64,000 nucleotides of DNA, taken from the NCBI GenBank assembly GCA_009914755.4, contig CP086569.2, positions 11,136,001 to 11,200,000 of the forward strand, in the 5' to 3' direction. The notes beneath the pieces are model-generated. The model searched no databases and was not told the origin of the DNA. It saw only the letters and a list, made by a program, of their open reading frames with translations. Of this stretch, positions 9,017 to 64,000 are shown in pieces. Position numbers and translations under genes: made by a program. How positions within the stretch are numbered: the first letter of the stretch is position 1; every line of letters starts with the position of its first letter. Origin of the DNA: the human T2T-CHM13v2.0 reference genome, Homo sapiens.

Positions 9017-9765
9017 ATCACTCCACTCCACGCCATTCTGCTCCACTCCACTCCAGTCCAGTCGACTCCACTGAATTCCATTCCACTCCCCGCCATTCCA
9101 CTCAACTCGATTCCACTCCAGTCCAGTATATTCCACTCCACTCCACTCCATTCCACTTCACTCCATTCCATTTCACAGCACCTCATTCCATTCCACTCCA
9201 CTCCATTCCATTCCATTCCATTCCATTCCATTCCATTCCATTCCATTCCTTTCCATTATACTCCGTTCCATTCCATTCCACTCAATTCCACTCAACTCCT
9301 TTCCACTCCACTCCATTCCATTCTATTCCATTCCATTCCATTCCATACCACTATAATCCATTCCACTTCATTATTTTCCATTCAACTGCATTCCATTCCA
9401 CTCCACTCCACTTCAATCCACTACATTCCATTCCACTCCACCCCCCTCCAATGCACTCCACTCCACTCCACTAAATTCCATTCCACTCCATTCCATTCCA
9501 CTACATTCCCTTCCAGTCCACTCCATTCCACACCACTCCATTCCACTCAACTCCATTCCATTCCACACCATTCCAATCCATTCCATTCCATTCCATTCCA
9601 TCCCATTCTATTCCATTCCATTCCATTACACTCCATTCCATTCAATTCCATTCTATTGCACTCCATTCCACTATCCGTCATTCCACTCCACTCCATTCCA
9701 ATCCACTCCACTCCATTCCATTCTACTCCATTCCATTTCATTCTACGCCATTCCATTCAATTGCT

Positions 9766-9835
9766 TTATTTCGATTAGATCTCACTCAGTCACCCAGACT
9801 GGAGTGCACTGGCACAATCTTAGCTCACATGTCAT
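9766..9835 (-). mobile_element. Antisense Alu 3'-tail relic, class A variant
   Basis: tcgattagatctcactcagtcacccagactggagtgcactggcacaatcttagctcacatg matches the reverse complement of the Alu 3' end (gagtctcgctctgtcgcccaggctggagtgcagtggcgcgatctcggctcac) with CpGs decayed. Confidence 0.75.
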
Positions 9836-10100
9836 TTCATCATTCAATTCCATTCCATATCATTCCATTCCACACCATTCCATTCAATTCCACTCCACTC
9901 CACACCATTCAACTCTATTCAATTCCATTCCACTCTTTTTCATTCCATTCCATTCCATTCCACTGCACTCCGATCCACTCCACTCAACTCTGCTCAACTC
10001 CAATCGACTCCCGTTCATTCCTTTCCATTCCATTCTAATCCATTCAATTCCACTCCACTCCAATCCACTCTACTGCACTCCACTCCACTCCATTCCATAA

Positions 10101-10160
10101 CATTCCACTGCACTCTGATTAACTACACGCCATTCCACTGCACTCTGATTAACTACACGC
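10101..10160 (+). repeat. Exact 2 x 30-bp tandem duplication within HSat3
   Basis: cattccactgcactctgattaactacacgc occurs twice in tandem without mismatch. Confidence 0.8.
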
Positions 10161-10720
10161 AACTCCACTCCACTCCTGTCCACTCCACTCCATTCCATTC
10201 CACTCCACTCCATTCCATTCCATGCCACCTCATTCCATTCCACTCCACCTCATTCCATTCCACTCCACTCCATTTCATTCCATTCCATTCCATTCCATAC
10301 CACTACAATCCATTCCACTTCATTCCATTCCATTCAACTGCATTCCATTCCACTCCACTCCACTCCACTCCCACTCCATTCCATTCCACTCCACTCTCCT
10401 CCACTTCAATCCACTCCACTCCACTAAATTCCATTCTACTCCATTCCACTCCATTCCACTCCAGTCCACTCCACTCCACACCACTCCATTCCACTCGACT
10501 CCATTCCATTCCAAACCATTCCACTCCATTCCACTCCATGCCATTCCATTCCATTCCTTTCCATTCCATTCCATTCCATTCCATTCCATTCTACTGCACT
10601 CCATTCCACTACCCTTCATTCCACTCCACTCCATTCCAATCCACTCCACTCCATTCTACTCCATACCATTCTGCTCCACTCCATTCCATTCCATTCTACT
10701 CCATTCCATTCAATTCCTTT

Positions 10721-10793
10721 ATTTCAATTAGATCTCACTCAATCACCCAGACTGGAGTGCAGTGACACAATCTTAGCTCACATGTCATTTCAT
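10721..10793 (-). mobile_element. Antisense Alu 3'-tail relic, class A
   Basis: gatctcactcaatcacccagactggagtgcagtgacacaatcttagctcacatgtcatttcatc. Confidence 0.75.
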
Positions 10794-11540
10794 CATTTGA
10801 TTCCATTCCATATCATTCCATTCCACACCATTCCATTGCATTCAATTCCCCTCCACTCCACACCCCTCTACTCTACTCCATTTCATTCCACTCTTTTTCA
10901 TTCCATTCCATTCCATTCCACAGCACTCCGATCCACTCCACTGAATTCCGCTCAGCTCCAGCCGACTCCCGTTTGTTCCTTTCCGTTACATTCCCTTCCA
11001 TTCAATTCCACTCCACTCCACTCCACTGCACTCCATTCAACTCCATTCCATTCCTTTCCATAACATTCCACTGCACTCCGATTAACTCCACAAAACTCCA
11101 CTCCACTCCACTCCTGTCCATTCCACTCCACTCCATTCCACTGCACTCCACTACACTCCACACAACTCCACTCCACTTCCATCCAGTTCAGTCCATTCCT
11201 TCCACTCCAGTCCATTCCATTCCACTCCACTCCATTCCATTCCATTCAATTCTATTCATTCAATTCCACTCCACTCATTTCCACTCCACTCCACTGCACT
11301 CCATTCCACTCCACTCCACTTCATTCCACTCCACTCCACTCCAAACCAATCCAGTCCACTCCATTACACTCTACTCCACTCTGCTCCCTTCCATTCCACT
11401 GCACTCCACTCCACTCCACTCCATTCCATTCCACTCCAGTCTAATCCTTTCCACTCCATTCCAGTCCACTCCATTCCATTCTACTCCATTCCACTTCACT
11501 CCACTCCACTCAATTCCATTCCACTCGATTCCATTCCATT

Positions 11541-11612
11541 CCTTTGTTTCCACAGGATCTCTCTCTATCACACAGGCGGGAGTTCAGTGGCACAATCTCA
11601 GCTCAAATTTCT
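11541..11612 (-). mobile_element. Antisense Alu 3'-tail relic, class D
   Basis: ccacaggatctctctctatcacacaggcgggagttcagtggcacaatctcagctcaaatttctttacacc. Confidence 0.7.
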
Positions 11613-11732
11613 TTACACCATTCCACTGCATTCCATTCCATCCCATTTCATTCCACTTTATTTCATTCCACTCCACCCCACTCCACTCCATTCCAGTCCA
11701 ATTTATTCCATTTCATTCCATTGCTTTCCATT

Positions 11733-11815
11733 CTTTTCTTCCAACAGGACATTACTTTTTCACACATGATGGAGTGCAGTGGCACAATCTCAGCTCACAT
11801 TACATGTCAACTTTC
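11733..11815 (-). mobile_element. Antisense Alu 3'-tail relic, class B
   Basis: ggagtgcagtggcacaatctcagctcacattacatgtcaactttccattgc. Confidence 0.7.
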
Positions 11816-12341
11816 CATTGCAATCCGTTCCAATCCGTTCCACTCCGTTCCACTCCACTCCAATTAATTTCATTACACTTCTTTCCACTCCACGCCATTC
11901 CATTCCATTACACTCTACTCCGTTCCACTCCACTCCACTCCTATCCACTCCAGTCCACTCTACTCAATTCCATTCCACTCCAGTCCACTCAACCCCACTC
12001 CACTCCACTTCACTCCATTCCACTACACTCTACTGATTCAATTCCATTCCACTCCATTCCATTCCACTCAACTCCTCTCCATTCCATTCCACTCGACTCT
12101 ATTCCATTCCACTCCACTCCACTCCACTCCATTCCACTCCACTCCACTTTATTCCACTCCACTCCACTCCATTCCACTCCACTCCACTCCATTTGATTCC
12201 AATCCATTCCATTCAACTTCACTATAATCCATTCCACTGCAATCCATCCCATTCCATTCGACTCCATTCCACTCCACTCCACTCCATTCCATTCCATTTC
12301 ATTCCTTTCATTCCATTCCATTTCACTCCACTTCATTCCAT

Positions 12342-12430
12342 TCCTTTCTTTCAACAGGATATCACAGTGTCACCCAGGTGAGAGTGCAATGGCATAATCT
12401 CAGGTAAGATTACATGTCAACTTTACATTG
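12342..12430 (-). mobile_element. Antisense Alu 3'-tail relic, class B
   Basis: caacaggatatcacagtgtcacccaggtgagagtgcaatggcataatctcaggtaagattacatgtcaactttacattgc. Confidence 0.7.
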
Positions 12431-12630
12431 CATTGCATTCTATTCCATTCCACTCCACTCCATTCCATGCCATTCCATTCCATTCCATTCCATTCCATTC
12501 CACTCCACTTTACGACATTTCATTCCACTCCACTCCCCTCCACGCCAATCCACTCTACTCCAGTCCTTTCCATTCCACTCCATTCCATTCCTTTCATTCC
12601 ATTCCATTTAACTCCACTGCATTCCATTCC

Positions 12631-12715
12631 TTATTTCGAGAGGATAACACCGTGTCACCCAGGCTGGAGTGCAGTGGCATAATCTCAGCTAAGATTACAT
12701 GTCAACTTTATATTG
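12631..12715 (-). mobile_element. Antisense Alu 3'-tail relic, class B
   Basis: gtgtcacccaggctggagtgcagtggcataatctcagctaagattacatgtcaactttatattgc. Confidence 0.7.
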
Positions 12716-12960
12716 CATTGCATTCTATTTCATTCCACTCCACTCCATTCCATTCCATTCCATTCCACTCCATTCCATTCCATTGCACTCCATTCAATTC
12801 CATTCCATTCCACACCATTCCCTTCAATTCCATTCCATTACATTCCATTCCTCTACCTTTCATTCCACTCCACTCTATTCAAATCCACTCCACTCCATTA
12901 AACTGCATTCCATTCCGCTGCACTCCTTTCCACTCCCTTCTACTCCATTCATTCCATTCC

Positions 12961-13040
12961 TTTATTTCGACTGGATGTCACACTGTCACGCAGACTGGAG
13001 TGCAGTGGCAAAATCTTAGCTCACATTTCATTTCATCATT
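12961..13040 (-). mobile_element. Antisense Alu 3'-tail relic, class A
   Basis: tttatttcgactggatgtcacactgtcacgcagactggagtgcagtggcaaaatcttagctcacatttcatttcatc. Confidence 0.75.
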
Positions 13041-13549: not shown

Positions 13550-13630
13550 TCCTTTATTTCTACTGGATCTCACTCTGTCACCCATACTGCCATGCTGTGG
13601 CACAATCTTAGCACACAATTCATTTCACCA
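13550..13630 (-). mobile_element. Antisense Alu 3'-tail relic, class A (degenerate)
   Basis: tactggatctcactctgtcacccatactgccatgctgtggcacaatcttagcacacaattcatttcacc. Confidence 0.65.
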
Positions 13631-14329: not shown

Positions 14330-14412
14330 ATTCCTTCATTTCGACTGGATCTCACTCTGTCACCCAGACTGGAGTGCAGTGGTACAATCTTAGTTCACAT
14401 TTCATTTCACCA
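14330..14412 (-). mobile_element. Antisense Alu 3'-tail relic, class A
   Basis: tcgactggatctcactctgtcacccagactggagtgcagtggtacaatcttagttcacatttcatttcacc. Confidence 0.75.
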
Positions 14413-15264
14413 TTCCATTCCATTCCGTTGCATTCCATTCCATTCCGTTGCATTCCATTCCATTCCATTCCATTCCATTCCATTCCATTCCATTCCATTC
14501 CATTCCGTTCATTTCCATTCCACTCCATTTCATTCAATTCCATTCCACTCCGTTCAATTCGATTCCACTCCACACTGATACACTCCACTCCACTGCATTC
14601 CATTCCACTCAACTGCTTTCCATTCCATTCCACTCAATTCTACTCCACTCCACTCCATTCCATTCTATTCCATTCCACTGCACAAGCATCCACTCAAAAC
14701 AACTCCACTCCAATCCACTCCATTCAGTTCCATTTCATTACATTCCCCTCCATTGCATTCCATTCCACTCCATTCCACTCCACTCTATTTCACTCCATTC
14801 CCCTCAATTCCAGTCCACTCCATTCCACCCTACTCCATTTCATTCCACTGCATTCCATTCCATTCCCATAAATTCCATTCAATTTCATTCAACTCCATGC
14901 CACTCCACTCCATTCCACTAAACTCCGTTCCACTACATGCCATTCCTTTCCATTCAATTGCACTCCAATCCATTCCACTCAACTCCATTCCATTCCATTC
15001 CATTCCACTGCAATCCGATCCACTGCACTCAACTCCACTCCACTCCACTTCAGTGAACTTATTACATTCCATTCCGTTCCTTTCCGTTCCATTCCGCTCA
15101 AGTCCATTCCAGTCCACTCCATTCTACCCCACTCCATTTCAATCAATTCCACTCCACTCCACTCCATTCCATTCCACTCCATTCCACTTCATTCTATTGC
15201 ATTCCACTCCATTCCATTCCACTCCACTCCATTCCATTCCAATTTACTCCCTTCCATTCCATTC

Positions 15265-15345
15265 TTTAATTTCTACTGGATTTCACTCTGTCACCCAGAC
15301 TGAAGTGCAGTGGCACAATCTTAGCTCTTATTTCATTTCATCGTT
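15265..15345 (-). mobile_element. Antisense Alu 3'-tail relic, class A
   Basis: tttctactggatttcactctgtcacccagactgaagtgcagtggcacaatcttagctcttatttcatttcatc. Confidence 0.75.
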
Positions 15346-16182: not shown

Positions 16183-16262
16183 TTCTTTATTTCTACTGGA
16201 TCTCACTCTGTAACTCAGACTGGAGTGCCATGGCACAATCTTAGCTCACATTTCATTTCAAC
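16183..16262 (-). mobile_element. Antisense Alu 3'-tail relic, class A
   Basis: tctactggatctcactctgtaactcagactggagtgccatggcacaatcttagctcacatttcatttca. Confidence 0.75.
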
Positions 16263-17579: not shown

Positions 17580-17658
17580 GTTCTATGTCGACTGGATCTC
17601 ACTCCGTCACCCAGACTGAAGTGCAGTGGCACAATCTAAGCTCACATTTCATTTCGCC
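17580..17658 (-). mobile_element. Antisense Alu 3'-tail relic, class A
   Basis: gtcgactggatctcactccgtcacccagactgaagtgcagtggcacaatctaagctcacatttcatttcgcc. Confidence 0.75.
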
Positions 17659-18207
17659 CCTCCATTCCATTCCATTCCGTTCCACTGCTCTTGGATCCGC
17701 TCCGCTCCACTACCCTCCACTTAACTCCACTCCACTCTGTTCCAGACCATTCCATTCTGTTCCATTCCATTCCATTCCACTCCACTCCATTCCATTCCAC
17801 TCCATTTCTGTCCATTCCACTCCAGTCCACTCCATTCCATTCCATTTCATTCCATGCCTCTGCACTCCGATCCACTCCACTCAACTCCACTGCACTCTTC
17901 ACCTCTTTGTTCCATTCCATTCTGTTCTATTCCCTTCCTTACCATTCTATTCCATTCCATTTCATTCCACTCCACTCGATTCCACTCCACTCCATTTCAC
18001 TCCATTCCACTCAATTCCACTCCACTCTACTCTACTCCACTACACCCAATTCCATTCTACTCCATTTCATTCCATTCCACTGCATTCCATTTGATTCCAT
18101 TCCACTCCATTCCACTTCATTCCTTTCCACTCCACTCCACTCCATTCCACTCCATTCCATTGCCCACCACTCCATTACAATACATTCTATTCCATTCCAT
18201 TCCATTC

Positions 18208-18285
18208 GTTTATTGCATCTGGAACTCACTTTGTCACAGAGACTGGAGTGCAGTGGCACAATCATAGCTGACATTTCATTTCACC
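18208..18285 (-). mobile_element. Antisense Alu 3'-tail relic, class A
   Basis: ctggaactcactttgtcacagagactggagtgcagtggcacaatcatagctgacatttcatttcacc. Confidence 0.7.
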
Positions 18286-19835
18286 TTTCCGTTTCATTCC
18301 ATTCTATTCCATTCCATTGCATTCCATTCCCTTCCATTCCACTCCACTCCATTCCACCTCATTCCACTCTACTCCGATCCACTCCACTCCACTCCACCCC
18401 GTTCCATTCCATTCCGTTCCATTCCATTCCATTCCGTTCCATTCGATTGCATTCAACATCACTCCATTCCACTCCACTCCACTCAATTCAACTCCAGTCC
18501 ACTCCACTTCATTCCTTTCCACTCCACTCCACCCCACTCCACTCCACTCCTTTCCATTGCACTCCATTCCACTCCATTCCACTCCAATCCACTCCTTTTC
18601 ATTTCATTTCACTCCATTCTGTTCCACTCCATTCCTCTCCAGTCCACTTCATTCCACCCCTTTCCACTCCATTCCACCCCAATCCACTCCATTCCACTCC
18701 ACTACACTCCATTTCATTCCACTACACTCCTTTTCATTCCTTTCCCTTCCACTCCTTTCCACTCCATTCCATTCCATCCCATTCTATTCCACTCAAGTCC
18801 ACTCCATTCAACTCCACTCCACTCCATTCCACTCCATTCCATTCCATTTCATGCCATTCTACCCCATTCCATTAAATTCCATTCCACTCCATTCCCCTCC
18901 ATTCCACTCTCTTCCACTCCATTCCATTCCATTCCACTCCACTCCTTTCCAATCCGTTCCAATACATTTCATTCCACTCCACTCCACTCCTCTCCATTCC
19001 ACTATTCCACTCCAGTTCCTTTTACTCAACTCCATTCAACTCCTTTTGACTCCACTCCAGTCCACTTCTTTCCTTTCCATTCCACTACATTCCTCTGCAG
19101 TCCACTTTACTCCATTGCATTCCACTCCACTCCAATCCATTACACTCCACTCCTCTCCACTCCCCTCCATCCCATTCCACTCCTTTTCAGTCCAATCCAC
19201 TCCACTACATTCCTATCCATGACACTCCATTTCACTCTACTCCACTCCTCTCCAGTCCACTACATTCCAATACACTCCAATCCATTCATCTCCACTCCAT
19301 TACATTCAACTCTACTGCATTCCATTCCATTTCACTTCATTCCATTCCGTTCCTTTTGACTGCATTCCATTCCACTGCATTCCATTCCACTCTACTCCTT
19401 TACATTCCATGCCATTCCATTGTATTCCATTCAATTTCATTCCATTCCATTCCATTCCACTACATTCCCTTACACTTCATTCCATTCCATTCAACTCCAT
19501 TCCATTCCACTCCACTCCACTGCACTCCGCGCCACTCCATTGCACTCCACTCCCCTCCACCCCAATCGACTCCCATTCAGTCCATTTCTTTCCACTCTTT
19601 TCCACTCCATTCCCCTGCATTCCACTCCAATCCAATCCACTCAACACCAATCCACTTCCCTCCATTATATTCCATTCCACTACTTTCCATTCCATTGCAC
19701 TCCATTCCATTTTATTCCATTCCATTGCACTCCATTCCACTACCCTTCATTCCTCTCCACTCAATTCCAATCCATTTCACTCCATTGCATTCCGCTCCAC
19801 TCCATTCCATTCCCTTCTACTCCCTTCATTCCATT

Positions 19836-19915
19836 ATTTATTTCGACTATATCTCACTCTGTTACCCAGACGGGAGTGCAGTGGCACAATCTTAGCTCAC
19901 ATTTTATTTCATCAT
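19836..19915 (-). mobile_element. Antisense Alu 3'-tail relic, class A
   Basis: tatttcgactatatctcactctgttacccagacgggagtgcagtggcacaatcttagctcacattttatttcatc. Confidence 0.75.
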
Positions 19916-53147: not shown

Positions 53148-53228
53148 TTCCTTTCTTTCTACAGGATCTCACTCTGTCACAAAGCCTGGAGTGCACTGGC
53201 ATAATCTCAGCTCACATTTCTTTTCACC
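53148..53228 (-). mobile_element. Antisense Alu 3'-tail relic, class D
   Basis: ctttctttctacaggatctcactctgtcacaaagcctggagtgcactggcataatctcagctcacatttcttttcacc. Confidence 0.7.
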
Positions 53229-53257
53229 ATTCCATTGCAATAAATTCCATTCCGTTC

Positions 53258-53335
53258 CTTTCTTTCTACAGGATCTCACCTTTCACAAAGACTGGAATGA
53301 ACTCTGACAATCTCAGCTCACACTAATTTTCACCA
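53258..53335 (-). mobile_element. Antisense Alu 3'-tail relic, class D (degenerate local duplicate)
   Basis: ctttctttctacaggatctcacctttcacaaagactggaatgaactctgacaatctcagctcacactaattttcacc. Confidence 0.6.
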
Positions 53336-53479
53336 TTCCATCTCATTGCATTCCACTCTATTTCACTCCACTCTACTCTGTTCCACTACATTCCATTCCA
53401 TTCCACTCCAATCCAATACTTTCTACTCCACTCCACTCCCCTCCATTCCATTCCATTCCACTCCATACCATTCCATTCC

Positions 53480-53560
53480 TTTATTTTGACAGGATCTCAC
53501 TCTGTCACCCAGGCTGGAGTGCAGTGGCACAACCTCCGCTCACGTTTTATTTCATCATTC
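53480..53560 (-). mobile_element. Antisense Alu 3'-tail relic, class E-like
   Basis: ttattttgacaggatctcactctgtcacccaggctggagtgcagtggcacaacctccgctcacgttttatttcatc. Confidence 0.75.
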
Positions 53561-53942: not shown

Positions 53943-54035
53943 TCCTTTCTTTCAGCAGGATATCACTGTGTCACGCAGTCTGGAGTGCAGTGGCACAATC
54001 TCAGTTCACATTACATGTCAACTTTCCATTGCATT
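53943..54035 (-). mobile_element. Antisense Alu 3'-tail relic, class B
   Basis: ctttctttcagcaggatatcactgtgtcacgcagtctggagtgcagtggcacaatctcagttcacattacatgtcaactttccattgc. Confidence 0.75.
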
Positions 54036-54267: not shown

Positions 54268-54350
54268 ATTCCATTCCTTTCTTTTGACAGGATCTCACTC
54301 TATCACCCGGGCTGGTGTGCAGTGGCACAGTCTCAACTCACATTTCATTT
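54268..54350 (-). mobile_element. Antisense Alu 3'-tail relic, class E
   Basis: cttttgacaggatctcactctatcacccgggctggtgtgcagtggcacagtctcaactcacatttcatttcac. Confidence 0.75.
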
Positions 54351-54480: not shown

Positions 54481-54635
54481 TTCCACTCCATTCCATTCCA
54501 TTCCACTCCATTCCATTCCATTCCACTCCATTCCATTCCATTCCATTCCATTCCATTCCATTCCATTCCATTCCATTCCACTCCATTCCATTCCATTCCA
54601 TTCCATTCCATTCCATTCCATTCCATTCCATTCCT
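54481..54635 (+). repeat. ~155-bp near-perfect (CATTC)n tract with occasional CCACT
   Basis: The longest near-homogeneous pentamer tract in the window. Confidence 0.8.
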
Positions 54636-54712
54636 TTCTTTCCACAGGATCTCACTCCGTCAAAAAGGCTGGAAATCAGTGATACAATATCAGCTCACAT
54701 TTCTTTCACCAT
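54630..54712 (-). mobile_element. Antisense Alu 3'-tail relic, class D
   Basis: ctttctttccacaggatctcactccgtcaaaaaggctggaaatcagtgatacaatatcagctcacatttctttcacc. Confidence 0.65.
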
Positions 54713-54949: not shown

Positions 54950-55040
54950 TCCTTTCTTTCAACGGGATGTCACGGTGTCCCCCAGGCTGGAGTGCAGTGG
55001 CACAATCTCAGCTCGCATTACATGTCAACTTTCCATTGCA
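54950..55040 (-). mobile_element. Antisense Alu 3'-tail relic, class B
   Basis: ctttctttcaacgggatgtcacggtgtcccccaggctggagtgcagtggcacaatctcagctcgcattacatgtcaactttccattgc. Confidence 0.75.
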
Positions 55041-55344
55041 TTACATTCTGTTCCATTGCATTCCATTGCATTCCATTCCATTCCATTCCATTCCAGTGCA
55101 ATCCATTCGATTCTATCTCCTTCCTTTTCATTCAATTCCATTACTTTCCACTCCTTTCCACTCCACTCCTTTACATTACATGCGATTCCATTCCACTCCA
55201 TTCCACTCCCCCGCACTCCACTTCACTCCATTCCACTACATCCCATTCCATTCCACTCCATTCCACTGCAATCCACTCCACCTCTCTCCACTTCACTTCT
55301 TTCCATTTCATCCCATTCCATTCCAATCCCTTCCATTCCACTCC

Positions 55345-55425
55345 TTTCTTTCGACAGGATCTATCACTGTCACACAGGCTGTAGTGTACTGGCACAATCT
55401 CAACACACATTTCTTTTCAACATTC
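55345..55425 (-). mobile_element. Antisense Alu 3'-tail relic, class C
   Basis: ctttctttcgacaggatctatcactgtcacacaggctgtagtgtactggcacaatctcaacacacatttcttttcaac. Confidence 0.7.
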
Positions 55426-55707: not shown

Positions 55708-55790
55708 TCTTTTTTTCGAGAGTATCTCACTCTGTCACCCAGCGTGGTGTGCAGTGACTTAATCTCAGCTCACATTTCATTTCACCATTC
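55708..55790 (-). mobile_element. Antisense Alu 3'-tail relic, class A'
   Basis: ttttttcgagagtatctcactctgtcacccagcgtggtgtgcagtgacttaatctcagctcacatttcatttcacc. Confidence 0.7.
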
Positions 55791-55994
55791 CATTCCATTC
55801 CATTCCATTCCATTCCTTTCCACTCCTCCCCAATCCACTCTTCTCCAGTCCAATCCATTCCACTCCACTCCATTCCTGTCCACTCCACTTCTGTCCATTC
55901 TATCCCATTCCGTTCCCCTCTTTTCCACTCCACACCACTCCAGTCAACTCTACTCAACTCCACTCCTTTCCATTCCACTCTATTCCATTCCATT

Positions 55995-56075
55995 GCTTTC
56001 TTTGTGAGTATCTCACACTGTCACCCAGGCTGGTGTTCAGTGACACAATCTCAGCTCACATTTCAATTCACCATT
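55995..56075 (-). mobile_element. Antisense Alu 3'-tail relic, class A'
   Basis: ctttctttgtgagtatctcacactgtcacccaggctggtgttcagtgacacaatctcagctcacatttcaattcacc. Confidence 0.7.
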
Positions 56076-56221
56076 CCATGACATTCCTTTCCATTCCATT
56101 CCATTCAATTCCATTCCATTCCTTTCCATTCCACTGCACTCCAATCCACTCCATTCAATGCCACTCCATGGCACTCAAGGCCATTCCATTCCATTATATT
56201 CCAATTCCTTCTCTTCTACTC

Positions 56222-56300
56222 CTTTCTTTTGACAGGATCTCCCTTTGTCCCACTGGGTGTACAGTAGTTGCACTATCTCATCACACATTATTTTCACCAT
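56222..56300 (-). mobile_element. Antisense Alu 3'-tail relic, class C (degenerate)
   Basis: ctttcttttgacaggatctccctttgtcccactgggtgtacagtagttgcactatctcatcacacattattttcacc. Confidence 0.55.
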
Positions 56301-56654: not shown

Positions 56655-56738
56655 TTCCTTTCTTTCCACACAATGTCACTCTGTCACAAAGGCTGTAGTG
56701 CATTGGCACAATCTTAGCTTCCATTTATTTACACCATT
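56655..56738 (-). mobile_element. Antisense Alu 3'-tail relic, class C/D
   Basis: ctttctttccacacaatgtcactctgtcacaaaggctgtagtgcattggcacaatcttagcttccatttatttacacc. Confidence 0.65.
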
Positions 56739-56902: not shown

Positions 56903-56998
56903 TCCTTTCTCTTGACAGGATTTCACTGTGTCACCCAGGCTGGAGAGCACAGGCAGAATGTCAGCTCACATTACAGGTTAACTTTCCATTGCTTTGCA
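56903..56998 (-). mobile_element. Antisense Alu 3'-tail relic, class B
   Basis: ctttctcttgacaggatttcactgtgtcacccaggctggagagcacaggcagaatgtcagctcacattacaggttaactttccattgctttgc. Confidence 0.7.
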
Positions 56999-57435
56999 TT
57001 CTATTCCATTGCATTTCTTTCCATTCCATTCCATTCTGTTCAATTCTATTCGATTCAATTCCATTCCGTTCCATTCCATTCCATGCGGTCCACTCCACTC
57101 TACTCCACTACATTCCATTACATCCGATTTCATTCCACTCCATTCCACTCCACTACACTCTACTCCACTCCATCCCATTCCATTCCGCTCTATTCCACTG
57201 CACTGCACTGCACCTCAATCCACTCAACTTCATTCCATTCCATTCCATCCCATTCCATTCCTCTCCATTCCACTCCATTCTACTTCACACCACTCCACTC
57301 CAGTCCATTCCATTCCATTCCATTCCATTCCATTCCATTCCACTTCACTCCACTCCACTCCATTCCACTCCACTGCACACCACTCCACTCCATTCCAATC
57401 CTTCCCATTCCATTCAGCTCCATTCCACTCTATTA

Positions 57436-57485
57436 CTGAGCATGGATCTCAGTGTCACAATCTAAGCTCACATTTTATTTCACAA
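57436..57485 (-). mobile_element. Antisense Alu 3'-tail relic, truncated (internal deletion)
   Basis: gagcatggatctcagtgtcacaatctaagctcacattttatttcacaattcc. Confidence 0.5.
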
Positions 57486-58002: not shown

Positions 58003-58095
58003 CCTTTCTTTCGACAAGATATCACTGTGTCACCCAGGCTTGAGTGCAGTGGCACAATCTCAGCTCACATTACATGTCAACTTTCCATTGCATTG
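58003..58095 (-). mobile_element. Antisense Alu 3'-tail relic, class B
   Basis: ctttctttcgacaagatatcactgtgtcacccaggcttgagtgcagtggcacaatctcagctcacattacatgtcaactttccattgcattgc. Confidence 0.75.
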
Positions 58096-58482: not shown

Positions 58483-58565
58483 TTCCTTTCTTTTGAGAGT
58501 ATCTCACTCTCTCACCCAGCCTGGAGCACAGTGGCACAAACTCAGCTCATACTTCATTACAATTC
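58483..58565 (-). mobile_element. Antisense Alu 3'-tail relic, class A'
   Basis: ctttcttttgagagtatctcactctctcacccagcctggagcacagtggcacaaactcagctcatacttcattac. Confidence 0.7.
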
Positions 58566-58717
58566 CATTGCATTGCATTCCATTCTATTCCATTCCATTC
58601 CATTCCATTCCATTCCATTCCATTCCATTCCATTCCACTTCACTCCACTCCACTCCATTCCACTCCACTCCACTCTAATCCATTCCATTCCATTCCAATC
58701 CCTTCCTTTTCTCTCCT

Positions 58718-58796
58718 TTCTTTCGACAGGATCTCCCTCTGTCACAGAGGCTGTAGCCTAGTGTCACAATCTCAGCACACATTTCCCTTCACCTTT
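58718..58796 (-). mobile_element. Antisense Alu 3'-tail relic, class C
   Basis: ctttctttcgacaggatctccctctgtcacagaggctgtagcctagtgtcacaatctcagcacacatttcccttcacc. Confidence 0.7.
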
Positions 58797-59149: not shown

Positions 59150-59232
59150 TTTCTTTCTTTCCCCAGGATCTCACTCTGTTACAAAAGTTGGAGTGCAGTG
59201 GCAGAATCTCAGCTCACATTTCTTTTCATCAT
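59150..59232 (-). mobile_element. Antisense Alu 3'-tail relic, class D
   Basis: ctttctttccccaggatctcactctgttacaaaagttggagtgcagtggcagaatctcagctcacatttcttttcatc. Confidence 0.7.
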
Positions 59233-59404
59233 TCCTTTGCTTTCCCTTCCATTCCATTCCACTCAATTTCACTCCACTCCACTGCATTCCATTCCACTCG
59301 ATCCCATTCCATTCAACTCAATTCCACTCCACTCCACTTCACTCCACTCCACTCCAGTCCACTCCATTCCATTCCATTCCATTTCAGACCATTGCATTCC
59401 ATTC

Positions 59405-59495
59405 CTATCTTTCAACAGGATATCACTGGGTCACCCAGGCTGGAGTGCAGTGGCACAATATCAACTCACATTACATGTCAACATACAATTGCATT
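59405..59495 (-). mobile_element. Antisense Alu 3'-tail relic, class B
   Basis: ctatctttcaacaggatatcactgggtcacccaggctggagtgcagtggcacaatatcaactcacattacatgtcaacatacaattgcattgc. Confidence 0.75.
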
Positions 59496-59824
59496 GCGAT
59501 CTATTCCATTGCTTTCCATTGCATTCCATTCCTTTCCATTCCATTCCATGCAATTCAATTCCATCCCACTACATTCCACTACATTCCATTACATCTGATT
59601 CCATTCCACTACATTCCACTCCTCTCCACTCTACTGCACTCCACTCTACTCCATTCCACTCCATCCCATTTCATTCCACTTCATGCCGCTGCACTCCACT
59701 CTACCCTACTCCACTCCACTTCATTCAATTCCATCCCATTCCATTCCTCTCCATTCCATTCCACTCCACTTCCCTCCACTCCACTACATTCCTCTCTATT
59801 CCATTCCACTGCATTTCATTCCAT

Positions 59825-59905
59825 TCCTTTCTTTAGAGAGTATGTCACTCTGTCACCCATCCTGGAGCACAATGTCACAATCCCATCTCACATTTCATTT
59901 CACCA
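59825..59905 (-). mobile_element. Antisense Alu 3'-tail relic, class A'
   Basis: ctttctttagagagtatgtcactctgtcacccatcctggagcacaatgtcacaatcccatctcacatttcatttcacc. Confidence 0.65.
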
Positions 59906-60117
59906 TTCCGTTCCATTCCATTCCATTCCATTCCATTCCAGTCCATTCCAGTCCACTCCACTGCACTCCGCTCCATTCCAATCTATTCCACTCAACTCCA
60001 CTCCACTCTATTCCAGTTCACTCCACTCCTTTCAATTCCATCCAGTTCCAATGCACTGTTTTCCACTCCACTGCACTCCACTCCATTGCAGTCCATTCCA
60101 CGCCATTTCATTTCATT

Positions 60118-60198
60118 CCTTTCTTTTGACAGGATCTCACTCTGTTACCCAGGCAGGTGTGCAATGGCACAATCTCAGCTCACATTTCATTTCACCAT
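60118..60198 (-). mobile_element. Antisense Alu 3'-tail relic, class E
   Basis: ctttcttttgacaggatctcactctgttacccaggcaggtgtgcaatggcacaatctcagctcacatttcatttcacc. Confidence 0.75.
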
Positions 60199-60295
60199 TA
60201 AATTCCATTGCATTCTATTCCACTGCACTCCACTACACTCAATTTCATTCGACTCCACTCCAATCCATTCTATTCCATTCCATTCCATTCCATTC

Positions 60296-60340
60296 CGTTC
60301 CATTCCGTTCCGTTCCGTTCCGTTCCGTTCCGTTCCGTTC
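60296..60340 (+). repeat. (CCGTT)n CpG-retaining pentamer variant run
   Basis: ccgttccattccgttccgttccgttccgttccgttccgttcc; a similar run is at 63616-63650. Confidence 0.8.
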
Positions 60341-60382
60341 CATTCCATTCCATTCCATTCCAATCCCTTCCATTCAATTCCT

Positions 60383-60460
60383 TTCTTTCAACAGGATCTT
60401 CCTCTGTCACACAGGCTGTAGTGTAATGGACCAATCTCAGCACATATTTCTTTTCACTAT
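60383..60460 (-). mobile_element. Antisense Alu 3'-tail relic, class C
   Basis: ctttctttcaacaggatcttcctctgtcacacaggctgtagtgtaatggaccaatctcagcacatatttcttttcac. Confidence 0.7.
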
Positions 60461-60736
60461 TCCATTCCAGTTCTTTCCATTCCATTCTGTTCCATTCCGT
60501 TCCATTCCATTCCATTCCATTCCACTCCACTCTTCTCCACTCCACTCCACTCCTCTCAGTTCCCTCCACTCCATTCTAATCCACTCCACTCCTTTCCACT
60601 CCATTCCACTCCACTCCACTCCATTCCACTCCACTCCACTCCATTCCACTCCACCCCACTCCATTCCATTCCAGTCCACTCCACTCCACTTCACTCCATT
60701 CCACTCCATTCCATTCCACTCCATTCCATTCCATTC

Positions 60737-60815
60737 CTTTCTTTCCACAGGATCCCAATCTGTCACAAAGTCTGGAGTGTAGTTGCACAATCTCAGCTCA
60801 CATTTCTTTTGACCA
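60737..60815 (-). mobile_element. Antisense Alu 3'-tail relic, class D
   Basis: ctttctttccacaggatcccaatctgtcacaaagtctggagtgtagttgcacaatctcagctcacatttcttttgacc. Confidence 0.7.
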
Positions 60816-61021: not shown

Positions 61022-61115
61022 CCTTTCTTTTGGCAGGATATCACTGTGTCACCCAGGCTGGAGTGCAGTGGCACAATCTCAGCTCACATTACTTCTCAAC
61101 TTTCCATTGCATTGC
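61022..61115 (-). mobile_element. Antisense Alu 3'-tail relic, class B
   Basis: ctttcttttggcaggatatcactgtgtcacccaggctggagtgcagtggcacaatctcagctcacattacttctcaactttccattgcattgc. Confidence 0.75.
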
Positions 61116-61642
61116 ATTCTGTTCAATTGCATTCCATTGCATCCCATTCCATTTCATTCCATTGCACTCCATTCCATTCAATTCCACTCCGTTGCACTCA
61201 ACTCCACTCCACTGCTTTCCATCACATCCGATTCCATTCCACTCCATTCCACACCTCTCCACTCCACTGCACTCCACGACAATCCATTCAACTACATCCC
61301 ATTCCATTCCACTCCACTCCACTCCACCATATTCCACTCAAGTTCATTCCATTCAATTCCATCCTATTCCGTTCTTCTGTATTCCACTCCGCTCCCTCCA
61401 CTCCTCTCCATTCCACTCCACTCCTTTCCACTCCACTCCATTCCACTCCTCTCCATTCCATTCCACTCCACTCTACTCCATTCCACTCCACTCCGTTCCA
61501 CTCCATGCCACTCCACTCCACTCCACCCCACTCCACCCACTCCGTTTCACTCCATTCCACTGCACTCCATTCCACTCTACTCCACTACATTCTCTTCCAT
61601 TCCACTCCACTCCATCCCACTCCACTCCATTCCATTCCATTC

Positions 61643-61722
61643 CTTTCTTTCCACAGGATCTCACTCTGTCACAAAGTCTGGAGTGAACTGGCACAATCTC
61701 AACACATATTTCTTTTCAGCGT
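61643..61722 (-). mobile_element. Antisense Alu 3'-tail relic, class D
   Basis: ctttctttccacaggatctcactctgtcacaaagtctggagtgaactggcacaatctcaacacatatttcttttcagc. Confidence 0.7.
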
Positions 61723-61874
61723 TCTATTGCATTCTATTAAATCTTATTCCATTCCACTCTATTTTGCTCCTCTCCACTCCATTCCATTCCACTGCAGAAC
61801 GTTCCAATCGACTCCACTCCACTCCAATTCATTCCATTCCATTCCATTCCATTTAACTCCTTTGCATTCCATTA

Positions 61875-61965
61875 CTTTCTTTCGACAGGATATCACTGTG
61901 TCACTCAGGCTGTGGTGCAGTGGAACAATCTCATCTCACATTACATGCCAACTTGCCATTTTATT
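61875..61965 (-). mobile_element. Antisense Alu 3'-tail relic, class B
   Basis: ctttctttcgacaggatatcactgtgtcactcaggctgtggtgcagtggaacaatctcatctcacattacatgccaacttgccattttattgc. Confidence 0.7.
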
Positions 61966-62292
61966 GCATTCTATTCCATTGCATTCCATTCTATTCCATT
62001 CCATTCAATTCCAGTATATTCGACTCCATTCCACTCCACTGCACTCCACTCCACTACATTCAATTACATCCGATTCCATTCCACTCCACTCCACTCCTGT
62101 CCACACCACTGCAATCCAATCCATTCCATTCCACTCCATCCCATTGCATTACCCTCCCATACACTGTAATCCTCTCCCCCGCACTCCATTCCACTTCATT
62201 CCATTCCATTCCATTCCTCTCCATTCCACTCCACTCCACTCCCCTCCAGTCCACGCCATTCCATTCCATTCCACAGCATTCCATTCCATTCA

Positions 62293-62368
62293 TCTTTGGA
62301 GATTATCTCACTCTGTCACCCAGCCTGGAGTGCAGTGGCATAATCTCAGCTCACATTTTATTTCACCA
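62293..62368 (-). mobile_element. Antisense Alu 3'-tail relic, class A'
   Basis: ctttggagattatctcactctgtcacccagcctggagtgcagtggcataatctcagctcacattttatttcacc. Confidence 0.75.
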
Positions 62369-62547
62369 TTCCAGTCCATTTTATTCCATTCCATTCCACT
62401 CCACTCTTCTCCATGCCAATCGATTCCACTCCACTTCACTCCACTCCATTCCAGTCCACTCCACTCCTTTCCATTCCATTCCATTTCATTCCACTCCTTT
62501 CCACTCCACTCCACTCAACTCCACTCCATTCTACTCCATTCCATTCC

Positions 62548-62628
62548 ATTCCTTTCTTTTGACACCATCTCACTCTGTTACCCAGACTGATGTGCAGTGG
62601 CTCAATCTCAGCTCAAATTTCATTTCAC
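62548..62628 (-). mobile_element. Antisense Alu 3'-tail relic, class E
   Basis: ctttcttttgacaccatctcactctgttacccagactgatgtgcagtggctcaatctcagctcaaatttcatttcac. Confidence 0.7.
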
Positions 62629-62757
62629 ATTCCATTCCATTCCATTGCATTGCATTCCATTCCATTCCAATGCACTCCACTCCTCGCCACTCAATTCCAC
62701 TCCACTCTACTCCAGTCCATTCCTTTCCATTACATTCCAATCCCTTCTATTCCACTC

Positions 62758-62836
62758 CTTTCTTTCAACAGGATCTCCCTCTCTCACACAGGCTGCAGTT
62801 TAGTGGCACAATCTCAGCACACATTTCTTTGCAACA
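62758..62836 (-). mobile_element. Antisense Alu 3'-tail relic, class C
   Basis: ctttctttcaacaggatctccctctctcacacaggctgcagtttagtggcacaatctcagcacacatttctttgcaac. Confidence 0.7.
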
Positions 62837-63217
62837 TTCCATTGCATTCCATTCCATTCCATTCCACTCCGTTCCTCTCCACTCCACTCCACCCAATTCC
62901 AATCCACTCCATTCCACTCCACTCCACTCTACTCCCTTCCACTCCACTCCACTCCAGTCCACTCCATTCCAATCTACTCCGTTCCACTCCACTCCAATGC
63001 ACTCCTCTCCATTCCATTCCTTTCTGCACCATTCCACTGCAATCCACTCCACCCCAATCGACTCCACTCCACTCCACTACTTTCCACTCCAGTCTACTCC
63101 ACTCCATTCCATTAAGCTCCACTCCACTCCATTACATTAAGCTCCACTCCATTTCACTTCACTCCATTCAACTCCACTCCACTCCTTTCCATTCCATTCC
63201 ACTCCATTCTATTCCAC

Positions 63218-63296
63218 TCCTTTCTTTCCACCGGGTCTCTCTCTTTCACAAAGTTTGTAGTGCAGTGGCACAATCTCAGCTTATATTTATTTTCAC
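63218..63296 (-). mobile_element. Antisense Alu 3'-tail relic, class D
   Basis: ctttctttccaccgggtctctctctttcacaaagtttgtagtgcagtggcacaatctcagcttatatttattttcacc. Confidence 0.7.
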
Positions 63297-63485
63297 CATT
63301 TCATTGCATTCCATTCCATCCCATTCCATTCCACTCTTTTTCACTCCTCTCCCCTCCACTCTATCCCATTTCACTCCATCCCATTCCATTTGATTCCATT
63401 CCACTCCACTCCACTCCACTCCACTCCATTCCGTTCCTTTCCATTCTATTCTATTCCATTCCATTGCTCTCCATTGCATTCCATT

Positions 63486-63580
63486 ACTTTCTTTCGATAG
63501 GATTTGACTGTGTCACACAGGTTGGAGTGTAGTGGCACAATCTCAGCTCACATTACATGTCAACTTTCCATTTCTTTTCA
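63486..63580 (-). mobile_element. Antisense Alu 3'-tail relic, class B
   Basis: ctttctttcgataggatttgactgtgtcacacaggttggagtgtagtggcacaatctcagctcacattacatgtcaactttccatttc. Confidence 0.7.
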
Positions 63581-63615
63581 TTCTATTCAATTGCATTCCA
63601 TTCCATTCCATTCCA

Positions 63616-63650
63616 TTCCGTTCCGTTCCGTTCCATTCCGTTCCGTTCCA
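63616..63650 (+). repeat. (CCGTT)n CpG-retaining pentamer variant run
   Basis: ccattccgttccgttccgttccattccgttccgttcc. Confidence 0.75.
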
Positions 63651-64000
63651 TTCCATTTCATTTAATTCCATTCCATTCAACTCCTTTCCACTCCACTCCA
63701 CCCCACTCAACTACATTCCATTACATCCGATTCCGTTCCACTCCATTCCACTCCTCTCCACTCCACTCCACTCCACTCCACTCCACTCCATTCCACTCCA
63801 TCCCATTCCATTCGGCTCCATTCCACTGCACTCCCCTCCACCCCAATTCACTCCACTTCATTCCATTCTGTTCCATCCCATTCAATTCCTCTACATTCCA
63901 CTCCGATCCTCTTCACTCCACACCACTCCAGTCCACTCCATTTCATTGCATTCTCTTCCATTCCATTCCAGTCCATTCCACTCCATCTCATTCCATTCCT

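What the first reader, a model, noticed from the sequence alone, without database searches (positions are those of the whole stretch)
9017..64000. One ancient Alu 3'-tail insertion co-amplified 84 times inside a pentameric satellite
All 84 G-containing interruptions of the (CATTC)n array are the same about 55-nt piece of an Alu. The piece is the reverse complement of the 3' end ...gagtctcgctctgtcgcccaggctggagtgcagtggcgcgatctcggctcac plus a poly-T image of the A-tail (cctttctttc). Every copy is truncated at the identical point (gctcacat|ttcatttcacc, satellite resumes). Almost every CpG is decayed to CA/TG. A shared truncation point is not expected from independent retrotranspositions. It indicates a single insertion that became part of the satellite repeat unit and was then amplified and diversified into classes A, A', B, C, D, E, F and G. 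The relics are a built-in marker set for reconstructing the amplification history of this array. I cannot tell from the sequence alone whether this matches an already catalogued HSat3 subfamily.
Basis: partly seen in the sequence, partly recalled or inferred. Interest (0 to 1): 0.55.

Follow-up and report, generated by a model that had tools for sequence, protein, structure and literature searches.

The report
Alu tail fragment copied within HSat3
A roughly 65-base end piece of one old Alu element became part of the repeating unit of a pentameric (CATTC/CACTC) satellite and was copied 84 times in this window; this is real but ordinary, because Alu fragments inside human satellite 3 arrays are already described.

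Summary
The array at 9017-64000 is a (CATTC/CACTC)n HSat3-type satellite. It holds exactly 84 copies of the last ~58 nt of an Alu plus a ~10-nt A-tail remnant. All copies are on the minus strand, and 72 of the 83 detected with an Alu consensus begin at Alu nt 224-226.

All copies share both flanks. They also share a lost 'TC' before the tail, a C274T change, and the same C-to-T state at five or six Alu CpG sites. One founder is therefore the only reasonable reading.

I add four points:
- The CpG decay is shared, so it predates the common ancestor of the copies.
- The same relic, truncation and class-specific junctions occur in at least 120 unrelated metagenome contigs, probably host DNA. The relic therefore marks a whole satellite family, not this array.
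- The array is old and not homogenised. Only a C-B relic pair, and two clear C-B-D-D-E blocks of ~1.58 kb, show higher order.
- The relic evolves at the same rate as its flanks, so it is a passenger.

The Alu subfamily cannot be resolved. The T2T centromere and Y-chromosome papers already report Alu fragments within HSat3 repeat units. This is known and of low interest.

The parts
1..9016 (.). 68-bp beta-satellite-type array flanking the HSat3 array. It has a strand switch at 2033/2034 and one inverted monomer at about 2420-2485.
   Evidence: TRF period 68, 75% matches; inverted repeats; sequence
9017..64000 (+). (CATTC/CACTC)n HSat3-type satellite array with the C-rich strand on +. It runs off the window end.
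   Evidence: GC skew about -0.8; TRF period 5; pentamer counts CATTC 2857 and CACTC 2451
59152..60801 (+). One C-B-D-D-E block of five relic-bearing subunits (about 1584 bp between successive C relics)
   Evidence: class order and spacing; C->B order reached by 1 of 20000 shuffles
61642..63284 (+). Second C-B-D-D-E block (about 1577 bp)
9763..9828 (-). Alu 3' relic, class A
10716..10781 (-). Alu 3' relic, class A
11541..11606 (-). Alu 3' relic, class C
11733..11798 (-). Alu 3' relic, singleton (class-B-type junction)
12343..12408 (-). Alu 3' relic, class B
12628..12693 (-). Alu 3' relic, class B
12959..13024 (-). Alu 3' relic, class A
13551..13616 (-). Alu 3' relic, class A
14333..14398 (-). 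Alu 3' relic, class A
15264..15329 (-). Alu 3' relic, class A
16184..16249 (-). Alu 3' relic, class A
17580..17645 (-). Alu 3' relic, class A
18207..18272 (-). Alu 3' relic, class A
19835..19900 (-). Alu 3' relic, singleton (A-like)
20191..20256 (-). Alu 3' relic, class A
20821..20877 (-). Alu 3' relic, class A, with a small internal deletion
21670..21735 (-). Alu 3' relic, class A
22519..22584 (-). Alu 3' relic, class A
23425..23490 (-). Alu 3' relic, singleton (A-like)
24804..24869 (-). Alu 3' relic, class A
25066..25131 (-). Alu 3' relic, singleton
25833..25898 (-). Alu 3' relic, class A
26255..26320 (-). Alu 3' relic, class A
26567..26632 (-). Alu 3' relic, singleton (A-like)
26878..26943 (-). 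Alu 3' relic, class A
28369..28434 (-). Alu 3' relic, class F
29023..29088 (-). Alu 3' relic, singleton
29729..29794 (-). Alu 3' relic, class F
29940..30005 (-). Alu 3' relic, singleton
33616..33681 (-). Alu 3' relic, class C
33863..33928 (-). Alu 3' relic, class B
37924..37989 (-). Alu 3' relic, class E
38204..38269 (-). Alu 3' relic, class F
38376..38441 (-). Alu 3' relic, class A
39292..39357 (-). Alu 3' relic, class E (local duplicate of 37924-37989)
39547..39612 (-). Alu 3' relic, class F (local duplicate of 38204-38269)
39719..39784 (-). Alu 3' relic, class A (local duplicate of 38376-38441)
41181..41246 (-). Alu 3' relic, class C
43892..43957 (-). Alu 3' relic, class C
44144..44209 (-). 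Alu 3' relic, singleton (B-like)
45582..45647 (-). Alu 3' relic, class C
45944..46009 (-). Alu 3' relic, class B
47470..47535 (-). Alu 3' relic, class B
48168..48233 (-). Alu 3' relic, singleton (C-like)
48449..48514 (-). Alu 3' relic, class B
49226..49291 (-). Alu 3' relic, class B
50389..50454 (-). Alu 3' relic, class C
50648..50713 (-). Alu 3' relic, class B
51279..51344 (-). Alu 3' relic, class E
51714..51779 (-). Alu 3' relic, class C
51979..52044 (-). Alu 3' relic, class B
52491..52556 (-). Alu 3' relic, class D
52778..52843 (-). Alu 3' relic, class D
53150..53215 (-). Alu 3' relic, class C
53256..53321 (-). Alu 3' relic, singleton (106-bp tandem duplicate of the previous relic)
53478..53543 (-). 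Alu 3' relic, class D
53944..54009 (-). Alu 3' relic, class B
54276..54341 (-). Alu 3' relic, class D
54633..54698 (-). Alu 3' relic, class C
54951..55016 (-). Alu 3' relic, class B
55343..55408 (-). Alu 3' relic, class E
55708..55773 (-). Alu 3' relic, class D
55994..56059 (-). Alu 3' relic, class D
56221..56286 (-). Alu 3' relic, singleton (E-like, very diverged)
56657..56722 (-). Alu 3' relic, class C
56904..56969 (-). Alu 3' relic, class B
57428..57471 (-). Alu 3' relic with an internal deletion (the 84th copy, found only with the relic profile)
58003..58068 (-). Alu 3' relic, class B
58485..58550 (-). Alu 3' relic, class D
58715..58780 (-). Alu 3' relic, singleton (E-like)
59152..59217 (-). 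Alu 3' relic, class C
59404..59469 (-). Alu 3' relic, class B
59826..59891 (-). Alu 3' relic, class D
60118..60183 (-). Alu 3' relic, class D
60380..60445 (-). Alu 3' relic, class E
60736..60801 (-). Alu 3' relic, class C
61022..61087 (-). Alu 3' relic, class B
61642..61707 (-). Alu 3' relic, class C
61874..61939 (-). Alu 3' relic, class B
62289..62354 (-). Alu 3' relic, class D
62551..62616 (-). Alu 3' relic, class D
62757..62822 (-). Alu 3' relic, class E
63219..63284 (-). Alu 3' relic, class C
63486..63551 (-). Alu 3' relic, class B

Best explanation
One Alu 3' fragment came to lie inside, or at the edge of, a (CATTC)n-type pentameric satellite. The fragment is Alu nt ~225-280 plus a short A-rich tail. 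It lacks the whole left arm and most of the right arm, so it cannot retrotranspose.

By the time of the last common ancestor of today's copies it had already lost all its CpGs (all C to T on the Alu sense strand), had a C274T change and had lost 'TC' before the tail. It was then multiplied passively, together with a few hundred bases of flanking pentamers. The ordinary satellite processes did this: unequal exchange, local tandem duplication and interlocus conversion.

The copies diverged into subunit types (classes A-F). Some of these became linked into larger units: a C-B pair ~250-290 bp apart, and occasionally C-B-D-D-E at ~1.58 kb. The family spread to many arrays.

The window shows an old, non-homogenised array of this family abutting beta satellite. 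The relic has no detectable function and evolves like its flanks.

Shown here: the single origin, the shared truncation and derived states, the presence in other loci, and the lack of differential conservation. Inferred: the duplication mechanisms, and how the founder arrived (5'-truncated retrotransposition versus later deletion or capture).
For: - 84 relics, all on one strand; 72 of the 83 consensus-detected copies start at Alu 224-226; 0 hits in shuffles.
- Both flanks are shared.
- Per-site table: T at 231, 237, 239, 261 and 269 in 79, 81, 78, 80 and 65 of 84 copies; T at 274 in 55; tail consensus GAAAGAAAGG. CG dinucleotides are almost absent and TG dominates.
- 574 further Alu hits in 120 independent contigs. 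All start at Alu 219-242, 94% at 224-226, and none is longer.
- Classes are shared with other contigs: 65 of 84 nearest neighbours lie outside the window, and the class-B 34-mer is exact in 9 contigs.
- Class order is non-random: C is followed by B in 10 of 14 cases, reached by 1 of 20000 shuffles.
- Local duplications occur at offsets 953, 1343-1368 and 1468-1498.
- In those duplicates the relic is 92.7% identical and the satellite 92.7% identical, Fisher p=1.
[quoted passage not shown] HSat3 blocks are 'intermingled with Alu fragments' on the Y and the acrocentrics (10.1101/2022.12.01.518724).
Against: - No clear target-site duplication can be read, because the flanks are low-complexity GAAAT/GAAAG. 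A retrotransposition origin of the founder is therefore not demonstrated.
- There is no fixed repeat period. Spacing runs from 106 to 4061 bp with a median of 422, and three stretches of 2.7-4.1 kb lack relics. 'Part of the repeat unit' therefore holds only loosely.
- Gapped identity between relic-to-relic units is 0.79-0.90, barely above random pieces of the array at 0.80. Homology of the pentamer parts cannot be shown directly.
- Mean divergence from the founder is 14.7%. At euchromatic rates that is more than the age of Alu allows, so a faster rate must be assumed. That is plausible from PMC12240836 but was not measured here.
Confidence: 0.9

Rival explanations
1. The founder did not retrotranspose into an existing satellite. 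Either an already old, CpG-depleted genomic Alu fragment was captured (for example at a double-strand break), or the pentamer array was seeded beside it. The amplification story is otherwise the same; only the origin of the founder differs.
For: - All five or six CpGs were already decayed in the common ancestor.
- The founder already differed from any Alu consensus at 2 non-CpG sites of about 44.
- There is no readable target-site duplication.
- Only ~58 nt of the Alu body are present.
Against: - An A-rich tail remnant sits exactly where a retrotransposed copy would have it.
- Shared decay can equally be explained by a long lag, or by homogenisation after insertion.
- 5'-truncated Alu insertions are known (general knowledge of L1-mediated retrotransposition).
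Confidence: 0.3
2. The 84 pieces are independent Alu insertions into a preferred target in the satellite.
For: None, beyond the general fact that Alu is abundant.
Against: - The truncation point, both flanks and the strand are the same in all 84 copies.
- The same C-to-T state is present at each CpG, along with the same C274T and the same lost 'TC'.
Confidence: 0.01
3. The relic is retained because it does something, for example as a protein-binding or recombination 'punctuation' mark in the array.
For: - It has persisted in every subunit class and in many arrays.
- It is the only G-rich, non-pentameric element of the unit.
Against: - In recent local duplicates the relic has diverged exactly as much as the flanking pentamers (92.7% against 92.7%).
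- Relics carry deletions (20821-20877 and 57428-57471).
- Mean divergence from the founder is 14.7%, and nearly every possible substitution is seen.
- Kilobase stretches of the array lack relics.
Confidence: 0.03
4. The similarity to Alu is chance or an assembly artefact.
For: The Rfam scan found no SRP/Alu-related family. A ~58-nt 3' piece would not be expected to reach threshold.
Against: - The founder consensus matches the printed Alu consensus at 48-50 of 56 positions, depending on subfamily (50 against the J consensus, 48 against Sx/Y). Five or six of the differences are CpG transitions.
- Per-copy E-values go down to 3e-9, with no hits in shuffles.
- The same element is present in at least 120 independently assembled contigs.
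Confidence: 0.01

Closest known systems
HSat3 arrays intermingled with Alu fragments on the Y and acrocentric short arms (T2T-Y paper, 10.1101/2022.12.01.518724; T2T centromere paper, 10.1101/2021.07.12.452052, which cites Bandyopadhyay et al. 2001)
   Same: This is a pentameric HSat3 with Alu fragments as a recurring component, with no local homogenisation of the fragments. That matches what is seen here and in the 120 related contigs. Beta satellite lies next to it, as on the acrocentric arms.
   Different: Those papers label the fragments AluY and propose seeding from PAR1. Here the 58 nt cannot separate Y from S, and the 3' end is J-like. I could not verify that the fragments they describe are this same truncated piece, nor place the window on a chromosome.
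HSat1B / DYZ2 (2.4-2.5 kb unit with one ancient Alu per repeat; Frommer et al. 1984, as cited)
   Same: A single Alu-derived piece was fixed in a satellite repeat unit and amplified with it.
   Different: HSat1B carries a much larger Alu part in a regular, homogenised ~2.5 kb unit of AT-rich sequence. Here there is only a ~65-nt tail piece in a pentameric satellite, with irregular spacing and high divergence.
HSat3A4 / pTRS-47-type acrocentric satellite III (GGAAT/GGAGT monomers; Altemose 2014, PMC4022460)
   Same: CATTC and CACTC are present at about 1:1. The top HSat3A4-specific 24-mer is the only HSat3 marker found exactly in the related contigs (7 exact, 34 within 1 mismatch).
   Different: In the window itself that 24-mer occurs only once, at 1 mismatch. 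The published clones have homogeneous 1.0-1.6 kb units, whereas this array is not homogenised.
Composite satellites made of transposable-element pieces (Hoyt et al., as cited)
   Same: TE-derived sequence is multiplied by tandem duplication rather than by transposition.
   Different: Those arrays consist entirely of TE combinations. Here the TE piece makes up about 10% of the array.

Membership tests
Alu SINE (as a fragment) | Sequence homology to the Alu consensus | tested here: met
   83 nhmmer hits with E down to 3e-9 and none in shuffles. The Sx, Y and one J consensus were verified against PMC5218400 and PMC8097388.
Alu SINE (as a fragment) | 3' A-rich tail | tested here: met
   The consensus GAAAGAAAGG follows ...CCTGTC (Alu sense) in the per-site table. 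Class D keeps AAAAG.
Alu SINE (as a fragment) | Dimeric ~280-nt body with Pol III A/B boxes (a complete, potentially mobile element) | tested here: not met
   No hit begins before Alu nt 218 in the window or 219 in the 120 loci. It is a dead 3' fragment.
Alu SINE (as a fragment) | Target-site duplication flanking the insertion | tested here: inconclusive
   The flanks GAAATGAAAT (5') and GAAAGAAAGG (3', overlapping the tail) are similar, but they are low-complexity satellite variants.
Alu subfamily (J, S or Y) | Diagnostic positions within nt 225-282 | tested here: inconclusive
   Nt 233 is A in 81 of 84 copies (S/Y-like). Nt 275-277 are C-C-T (J-like). Sx and Y are identical in this stretch. 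Summed bit scores are Jo 1669, Y 1622 and Sx 1619.
Human satellite 3 (HSat3) | Array derived from the (CATTC)n pentamer | tested here: met
   TRF period 5 over 9042-63999. CATTC and CACTC frames dominate the 5-mer spectrum.
Human satellite 3 (HSat3) | Assignment to one of the 11 subfamilies by subfamily-specific 24-mers | tested here: inconclusive
   Only the single top 24-mer per subfamily was available. None is exact in the window, and A4 is the only one within 1 mismatch. A4 is the only HSat3 subfamily with exact matches in the related loci. The full 24-mer list is truncated in the held copy.
Human satellite 3 (HSat3) | Chromosomal location (pericentromeric or acrocentric short arm) and species | not testable with these tools
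   No human or ape reference is available. The best related contig is only ~80% identical.
Satellite with a TE fragment in its repeating unit (nested tandem repeat) | The same TE fragment recurs in register with the repeat | tested here: met
   Same fragment, same flanks, 84 times. The class order C-B is non-random.
Satellite with a TE fragment in its repeating unit (nested tandem repeat) | A defined longer repeat period | tested here: inconclusive
   Spacing is 106-4061 bp with a median of 422. A ~1.58-kb five-relic block is clear only twice. There are few long exact diagonals.
Beta satellite (flanking array 1-9016) | 68-bp tandem unit | tested here: met
   TRF period 68 with ~96 plus ~30 copies. 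The family definition is from 10.1101/2021.07.12.452052.

The most novel reading that the evidence does not exclude
The relic family may descend from a pre-AluY founder of J to early-S grade that was fixed in an HSat3 lineage before that lineage spread over the acrocentric arms and the Y. If so, the 'AluY from PAR1' seeding proposed for HSat3-associated Alu fragments would need revision. Because the founder sequence is known, the relics could also serve as an internal yardstick. Their ~15% post-founder divergence and low transition:transversion ratio (0.6-0.9) would then measure a several-fold faster and qualitatively different mutation or conversion process in this heterochromatin.
Probability: 0.3. 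Interest if true: 0.3.

Novelty: already known. Interest (0 to 1): 0.15.

Why it matters
It matters little as a discovery. Alu fragments built into HSat3 repeat units are already reported for the complete human genome and the Y chromosome, and RepeatMasker tracks of complete assemblies would show these 84 pieces.

The practical value is modest but real. The relic is a non-pentameric landmark with a known ancestral sequence, which brings three uses:
- it makes an otherwise unalignable satellite alignable;
- it defines subunit classes that are shared between arrays;
- it could be used to trace how this HSat3 family spread among chromosomes and apes, and to gauge mutation and conversion rates in heterochromatin.

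This analysis also warns that subfamily labels such as 'AluY' cannot be justified for a 58-nt tail piece. Divergence-based dating fails here as well.

Tried and rejected
- A whole-window blastn self-comparison timed out. It was replaced by an 18-mer diagonal analysis.
- Gapped global identity between relic-to-relic units was dropped as a measure of higher-order repeats. Random pieces of the array already align at 80%.
- The Rfam scan of 50-64 kb gave no SRP/Alu hit. It gave only sub-threshold miRNA-like matches on a CATTG palindrome.
- The scan of bacterial and archaeal genome contigs for the junction pattern found nothing.
- The held Altemose 2014 supplementary files, which include the (truncated) 24-mer list, contain none of four 7-8-nt relic-derived strings. 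Only the 14 top 24-mers from Table 1 could be used.
- Choo et al. 1990 and Jarmuz et al. 2007 are not held, and Bandyopadhyay et al. 2001 could not be read. I therefore could not check whether the classic clones show this same relic.
- The HSat3 transcription-factor preprint does not mention Alu.
- A search for HOR periods matching published clone sizes in the related contigs found almost no same-contig relic pairs within 5%.
- Dating the founder from divergence was rejected. It implies an age older than Alu itself at euchromatic rates.

Full report
LAYOUT OF THE WINDOW

Positions 1-9016 are a 68-bp tandem repeat of the beta-satellite type. TRF gives period 68 and about 75% matches. Its orientation flips at 2033/2034, and one monomer at about 2420-2485 is inverted.

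At 9016/9017 the sequence changes abruptly to a pentameric satellite that runs to the end of the window. TRF gives period 5 over 9042-63999, and the GC skew is about -0.8. The satellite is a near-equal mix of CATTC and CACTC (2857 and 2451 occurrences). That is the GGAAT/GGAGT composition described for satellite III (PMC7767330).

CHECKING THE OBSERVATION

There were 83 hits, all on the minus strand and all covering only the last ~60 nt of Alu. The 3' ends of the Sx, Y and one J (Jb-type) consensus were later confirmed against sequences printed in PMC5218400 and PMC8097388; the Jo variant itself was not found there.
- In AluSx numbering, 72 of 83 hits begin at nt 224-226, with a range of 218-245.
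- 71 hits have E<=1e-3.
- Five shuffles of the array in 5-nt blocks gave no hit at all.

A profile built from the 83 copies recovered one more, at 57428-57471, which has lost its middle part.

Printing all copies anchored on Alu nt 225 shows that both junctions are shared...cattcctttctttc|gacaggatctcactctgtcacccaggctggagtgcagtggcacaatctcagctcac|atttcatttcaccattcc...

The relics make up 9.5% of the array but hold 39% of its G. Outside them, G is scattered at 3.2%. There is only one other G-rich block, a short inverted segment at about 36967-37045. 'All G-containing interruptions' is therefore slightly overstated.

ONE FOUNDER OR MANY

A per-site table of the 84 copies against the Alu consensus gives this founder sequence in Alu sense: GTGAGCTGAGATTGTGCCACTGCACTCCAGCCTGGGTGACAGAGTGAGATCCTGTC, followed by GAAAGAAAGG.

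At the Alu CpG sites 231, 237, 239, 261 and 269 the C is a T in 79, 81, 78, 80 and 65 of 84 copies. CG survives in at most one copy per site. C274T and the loss of 'TC' before the tail are also common to the classes.

Independent insertions would not share a truncation point, both flanks, the strand and this set of derived states. Independent CpG decay would give a mixture of TG and CA. The copies therefore descend from one fragment that was already CpG-free at their last common ancestor. It corrects one detail: the decay is inherited rather than accumulated copy by copy.

STRUCTURE OF THE ARRAY

I clustered the relics with 40 nt of downstream flank and about 20 nt of satellite upstream of the tail remnant at a 20% distance. 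This gives six multi-member classes (A 19, B 17, C 14, D 11, E 6, F 4) and 13 singletons. The classes are zoned:
- Class A dominates 9.8-27 kb, often about 0.85-0.95 kb apart.
- 27-47 kb is relic-poor, with gaps of 2.7, 3.7 and 4.1 kb.
- 50-64 kb is relic-dense.

There, C is followed by B in 10 of 14 cases, a value reached by 1 of 20000 shuffles. The order C-B-D-D-E occurs as two clear blocks of 1584 and 1577 bp.

The array is old. Mean pairwise distance of relic plus flank is 0.24, and mean distance from the founder is 0.147. Long exact 18-mer diagonals are few. They mark a handful of local duplications at offsets of 953, 1343-1368, 1468-1498 and 1965 bp.

Gapped identity between units (0.79-0.90) is hardly above that of random pieces of the array (0.80). 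Only the relics make the higher order visible.

RELATED SEQUENCES ELSEWHERE

I scanned the public metagenome contigs for the junction pattern CACAATCTYAGCTCACATTWC. The bacterial and archaeal genome collection had none.

Those contigs contain 574 Alu hits. All begin at Alu nt 219-242, 94% at 224-226, and none is longer. One relic per contig is present by construction; the rest are not.

Further comparisons:
- No contig is close to the window. The best are about 80% identical over 1.5-2 kb.
- 65 of 84 window relics have their nearest relative in another contig.
- The CpG sites show the same TG states in the contigs.
- Two contigs also carry beta satellite 86-88% identical to the window's.
- Within contigs, almost no relic pairs are within 5% of each other.

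The relic is thus the hallmark of a whole, generally unhomogenised satellite family. The classes predate the separation of this array from the others.

Of the top subfamily-specific 24-mers of Altemose 2014, the HSat3A4 one is the only HSat3 marker that occurs exactly in these contigs (7 exact, 34 within one mismatch). The HSat2A2 marker occurs once. In the window the A4 marker is found once, at one mismatch. That points to the acrocentric/Y subfamily A4, but it is weak evidence.

WHICH ALU, AND HOW OLD

Sx and Y are identical over nt 225-282. The founder is S/Y-like at nt 233 (A in 81 of 84). It is J-like at 275-277 (CCT rather than TCC), and either assignment needs two non-CpG changes. Summed bit scores differ by only 3%. 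The subfamily is not resolvable.

Divergence cannot date it either. About 5% founder-to-consensus plus 14.7% founder-to-copy, all at non-CpG sites, exceeds what even the oldest Alu shows at euchromatic rates. That statement rests on my own knowledge of Alu divergence levels.

The likely reason is a faster and different mutation process in satellites. [quoted passage not shown] It also reports interlocus gene conversion there, and a lower transition:transversion ratio in segmental duplications. Here that ratio is 258:433 over relic cells and 65:72 in recent duplicates.

FUNCTION

In the four recent local duplications the relic is 92.7% identical (345/372) and the surrounding satellite is also 92.7% identical (1398/1508), Fisher p=1. 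Relics carry internal deletions, and kilobase stretches lack them. Nothing suggests constraint, so the relic is a passenger.

How the founder arrived is not settled. The A-rich tail sits where a retrotransposed copy would have it. No target-site duplication can be read in the low-complexity flanks, however, and the founder was already decayed. Capture of an old fragment, or seeding of the array beside one, remains possible; I give this about 0.3.

COMPARISON WITH WHAT IS KNOWN

[quoted passage not shown] 2001 for satellite III.

[quoted passage not shown] It adds that the Y copies cluster with those of the acrocentric arms, and that there is no local homogenisation.

That is the phenomenon seen here, including the lack of homogenisation. 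The classic parallel is HSat1B/DYZ2, which has one Alu per 2.5-kb unit.

The finding is therefore already known in kind. This analysis adds the exact anatomy: truncation at nt ~225, a shared decayed founder, and class structure shared across loci. It also adds a caution about the AluY label.

I could not read the 1990-2007 clone papers. I also could not map the window to a reference, so species, chromosome and formal subfamily remain open.

VERDICT

Novelty: already known. Interest is about 0.15.

Noticed in passing
window 1-9016, especially 2033/2034 and 2420-2485: The flanking 68-bp beta-satellite array switches strand at 2033/2034. It contains a single inverted monomer at about 2420-2485. 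The T2T centromere paper reports many inversion breakpoints in beta-satellite arrays.
   Followed up: partly
window 36967-37045: A ~70-80-bp segment of the HSat3 array is inverted (GGAAT strand on +). It forms an imperfect palindrome with its neighbours and is the only G-rich block that is not an Alu relic.
   Followed up: partly
window 9016/9017: The beta satellite to HSat3 junction is abrupt (...gtaactcttgtatag|gatcactccactccacgcc) with no transition sequence. Two unrelated metagenome contigs (L066, L103) also carry beta satellite, 86-88% identical to window 4-1117, on a contig selected for a relic junction.
   Followed up: partly
window 53120-53362: A 106-bp tandem duplication (2.3 copies, 81% matches) carries a relic. 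It explains the shortest relic spacing (53215 to 53321).
   Followed up: yes
window 10101-10160 and 43467-43689: Small local tandem duplications lie inside the satellite: a 30-bp unit 'cattccactgcactctgattaactacacgc' repeated twice, and a 120-bp offset repeat.
   Followed up: no
window 50752-50802: A run of CATTG/TGCAT variants is self-complementary. It gives sub-threshold, two-strand Rfam matches to mir-33-like hairpins (22 bits against a gathering score of 50). This is almost certainly chance.
   Followed up: partly
relics throughout 9763-63551; local duplicates at 9300-11060, 37880-39805, 51930-54445: Substitutions show no transition bias: 258 transitions against 433 transversions over relic cells, and 65 against 72 in recent duplicates. 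This is unlike typical human euchromatin. It is possibly interlocus conversion or a different mutation process, and class-shared changes are counted repeatedly.
   Followed up: partly
window 27000-47000: The middle zone is relic-poor, with gaps of 3676, 4061 and 2711 bp. It is slightly richer in CACTC than CATTC (ratio 0.8-1.0 against 1.3-1.6 elsewhere), which suggests a differently derived block within the array.
   Followed up: no
window 9017-64000: CpG is depleted in the whole array (434 observed against about 1085 expected from base composition), not only in the relics.
   Followed up: no
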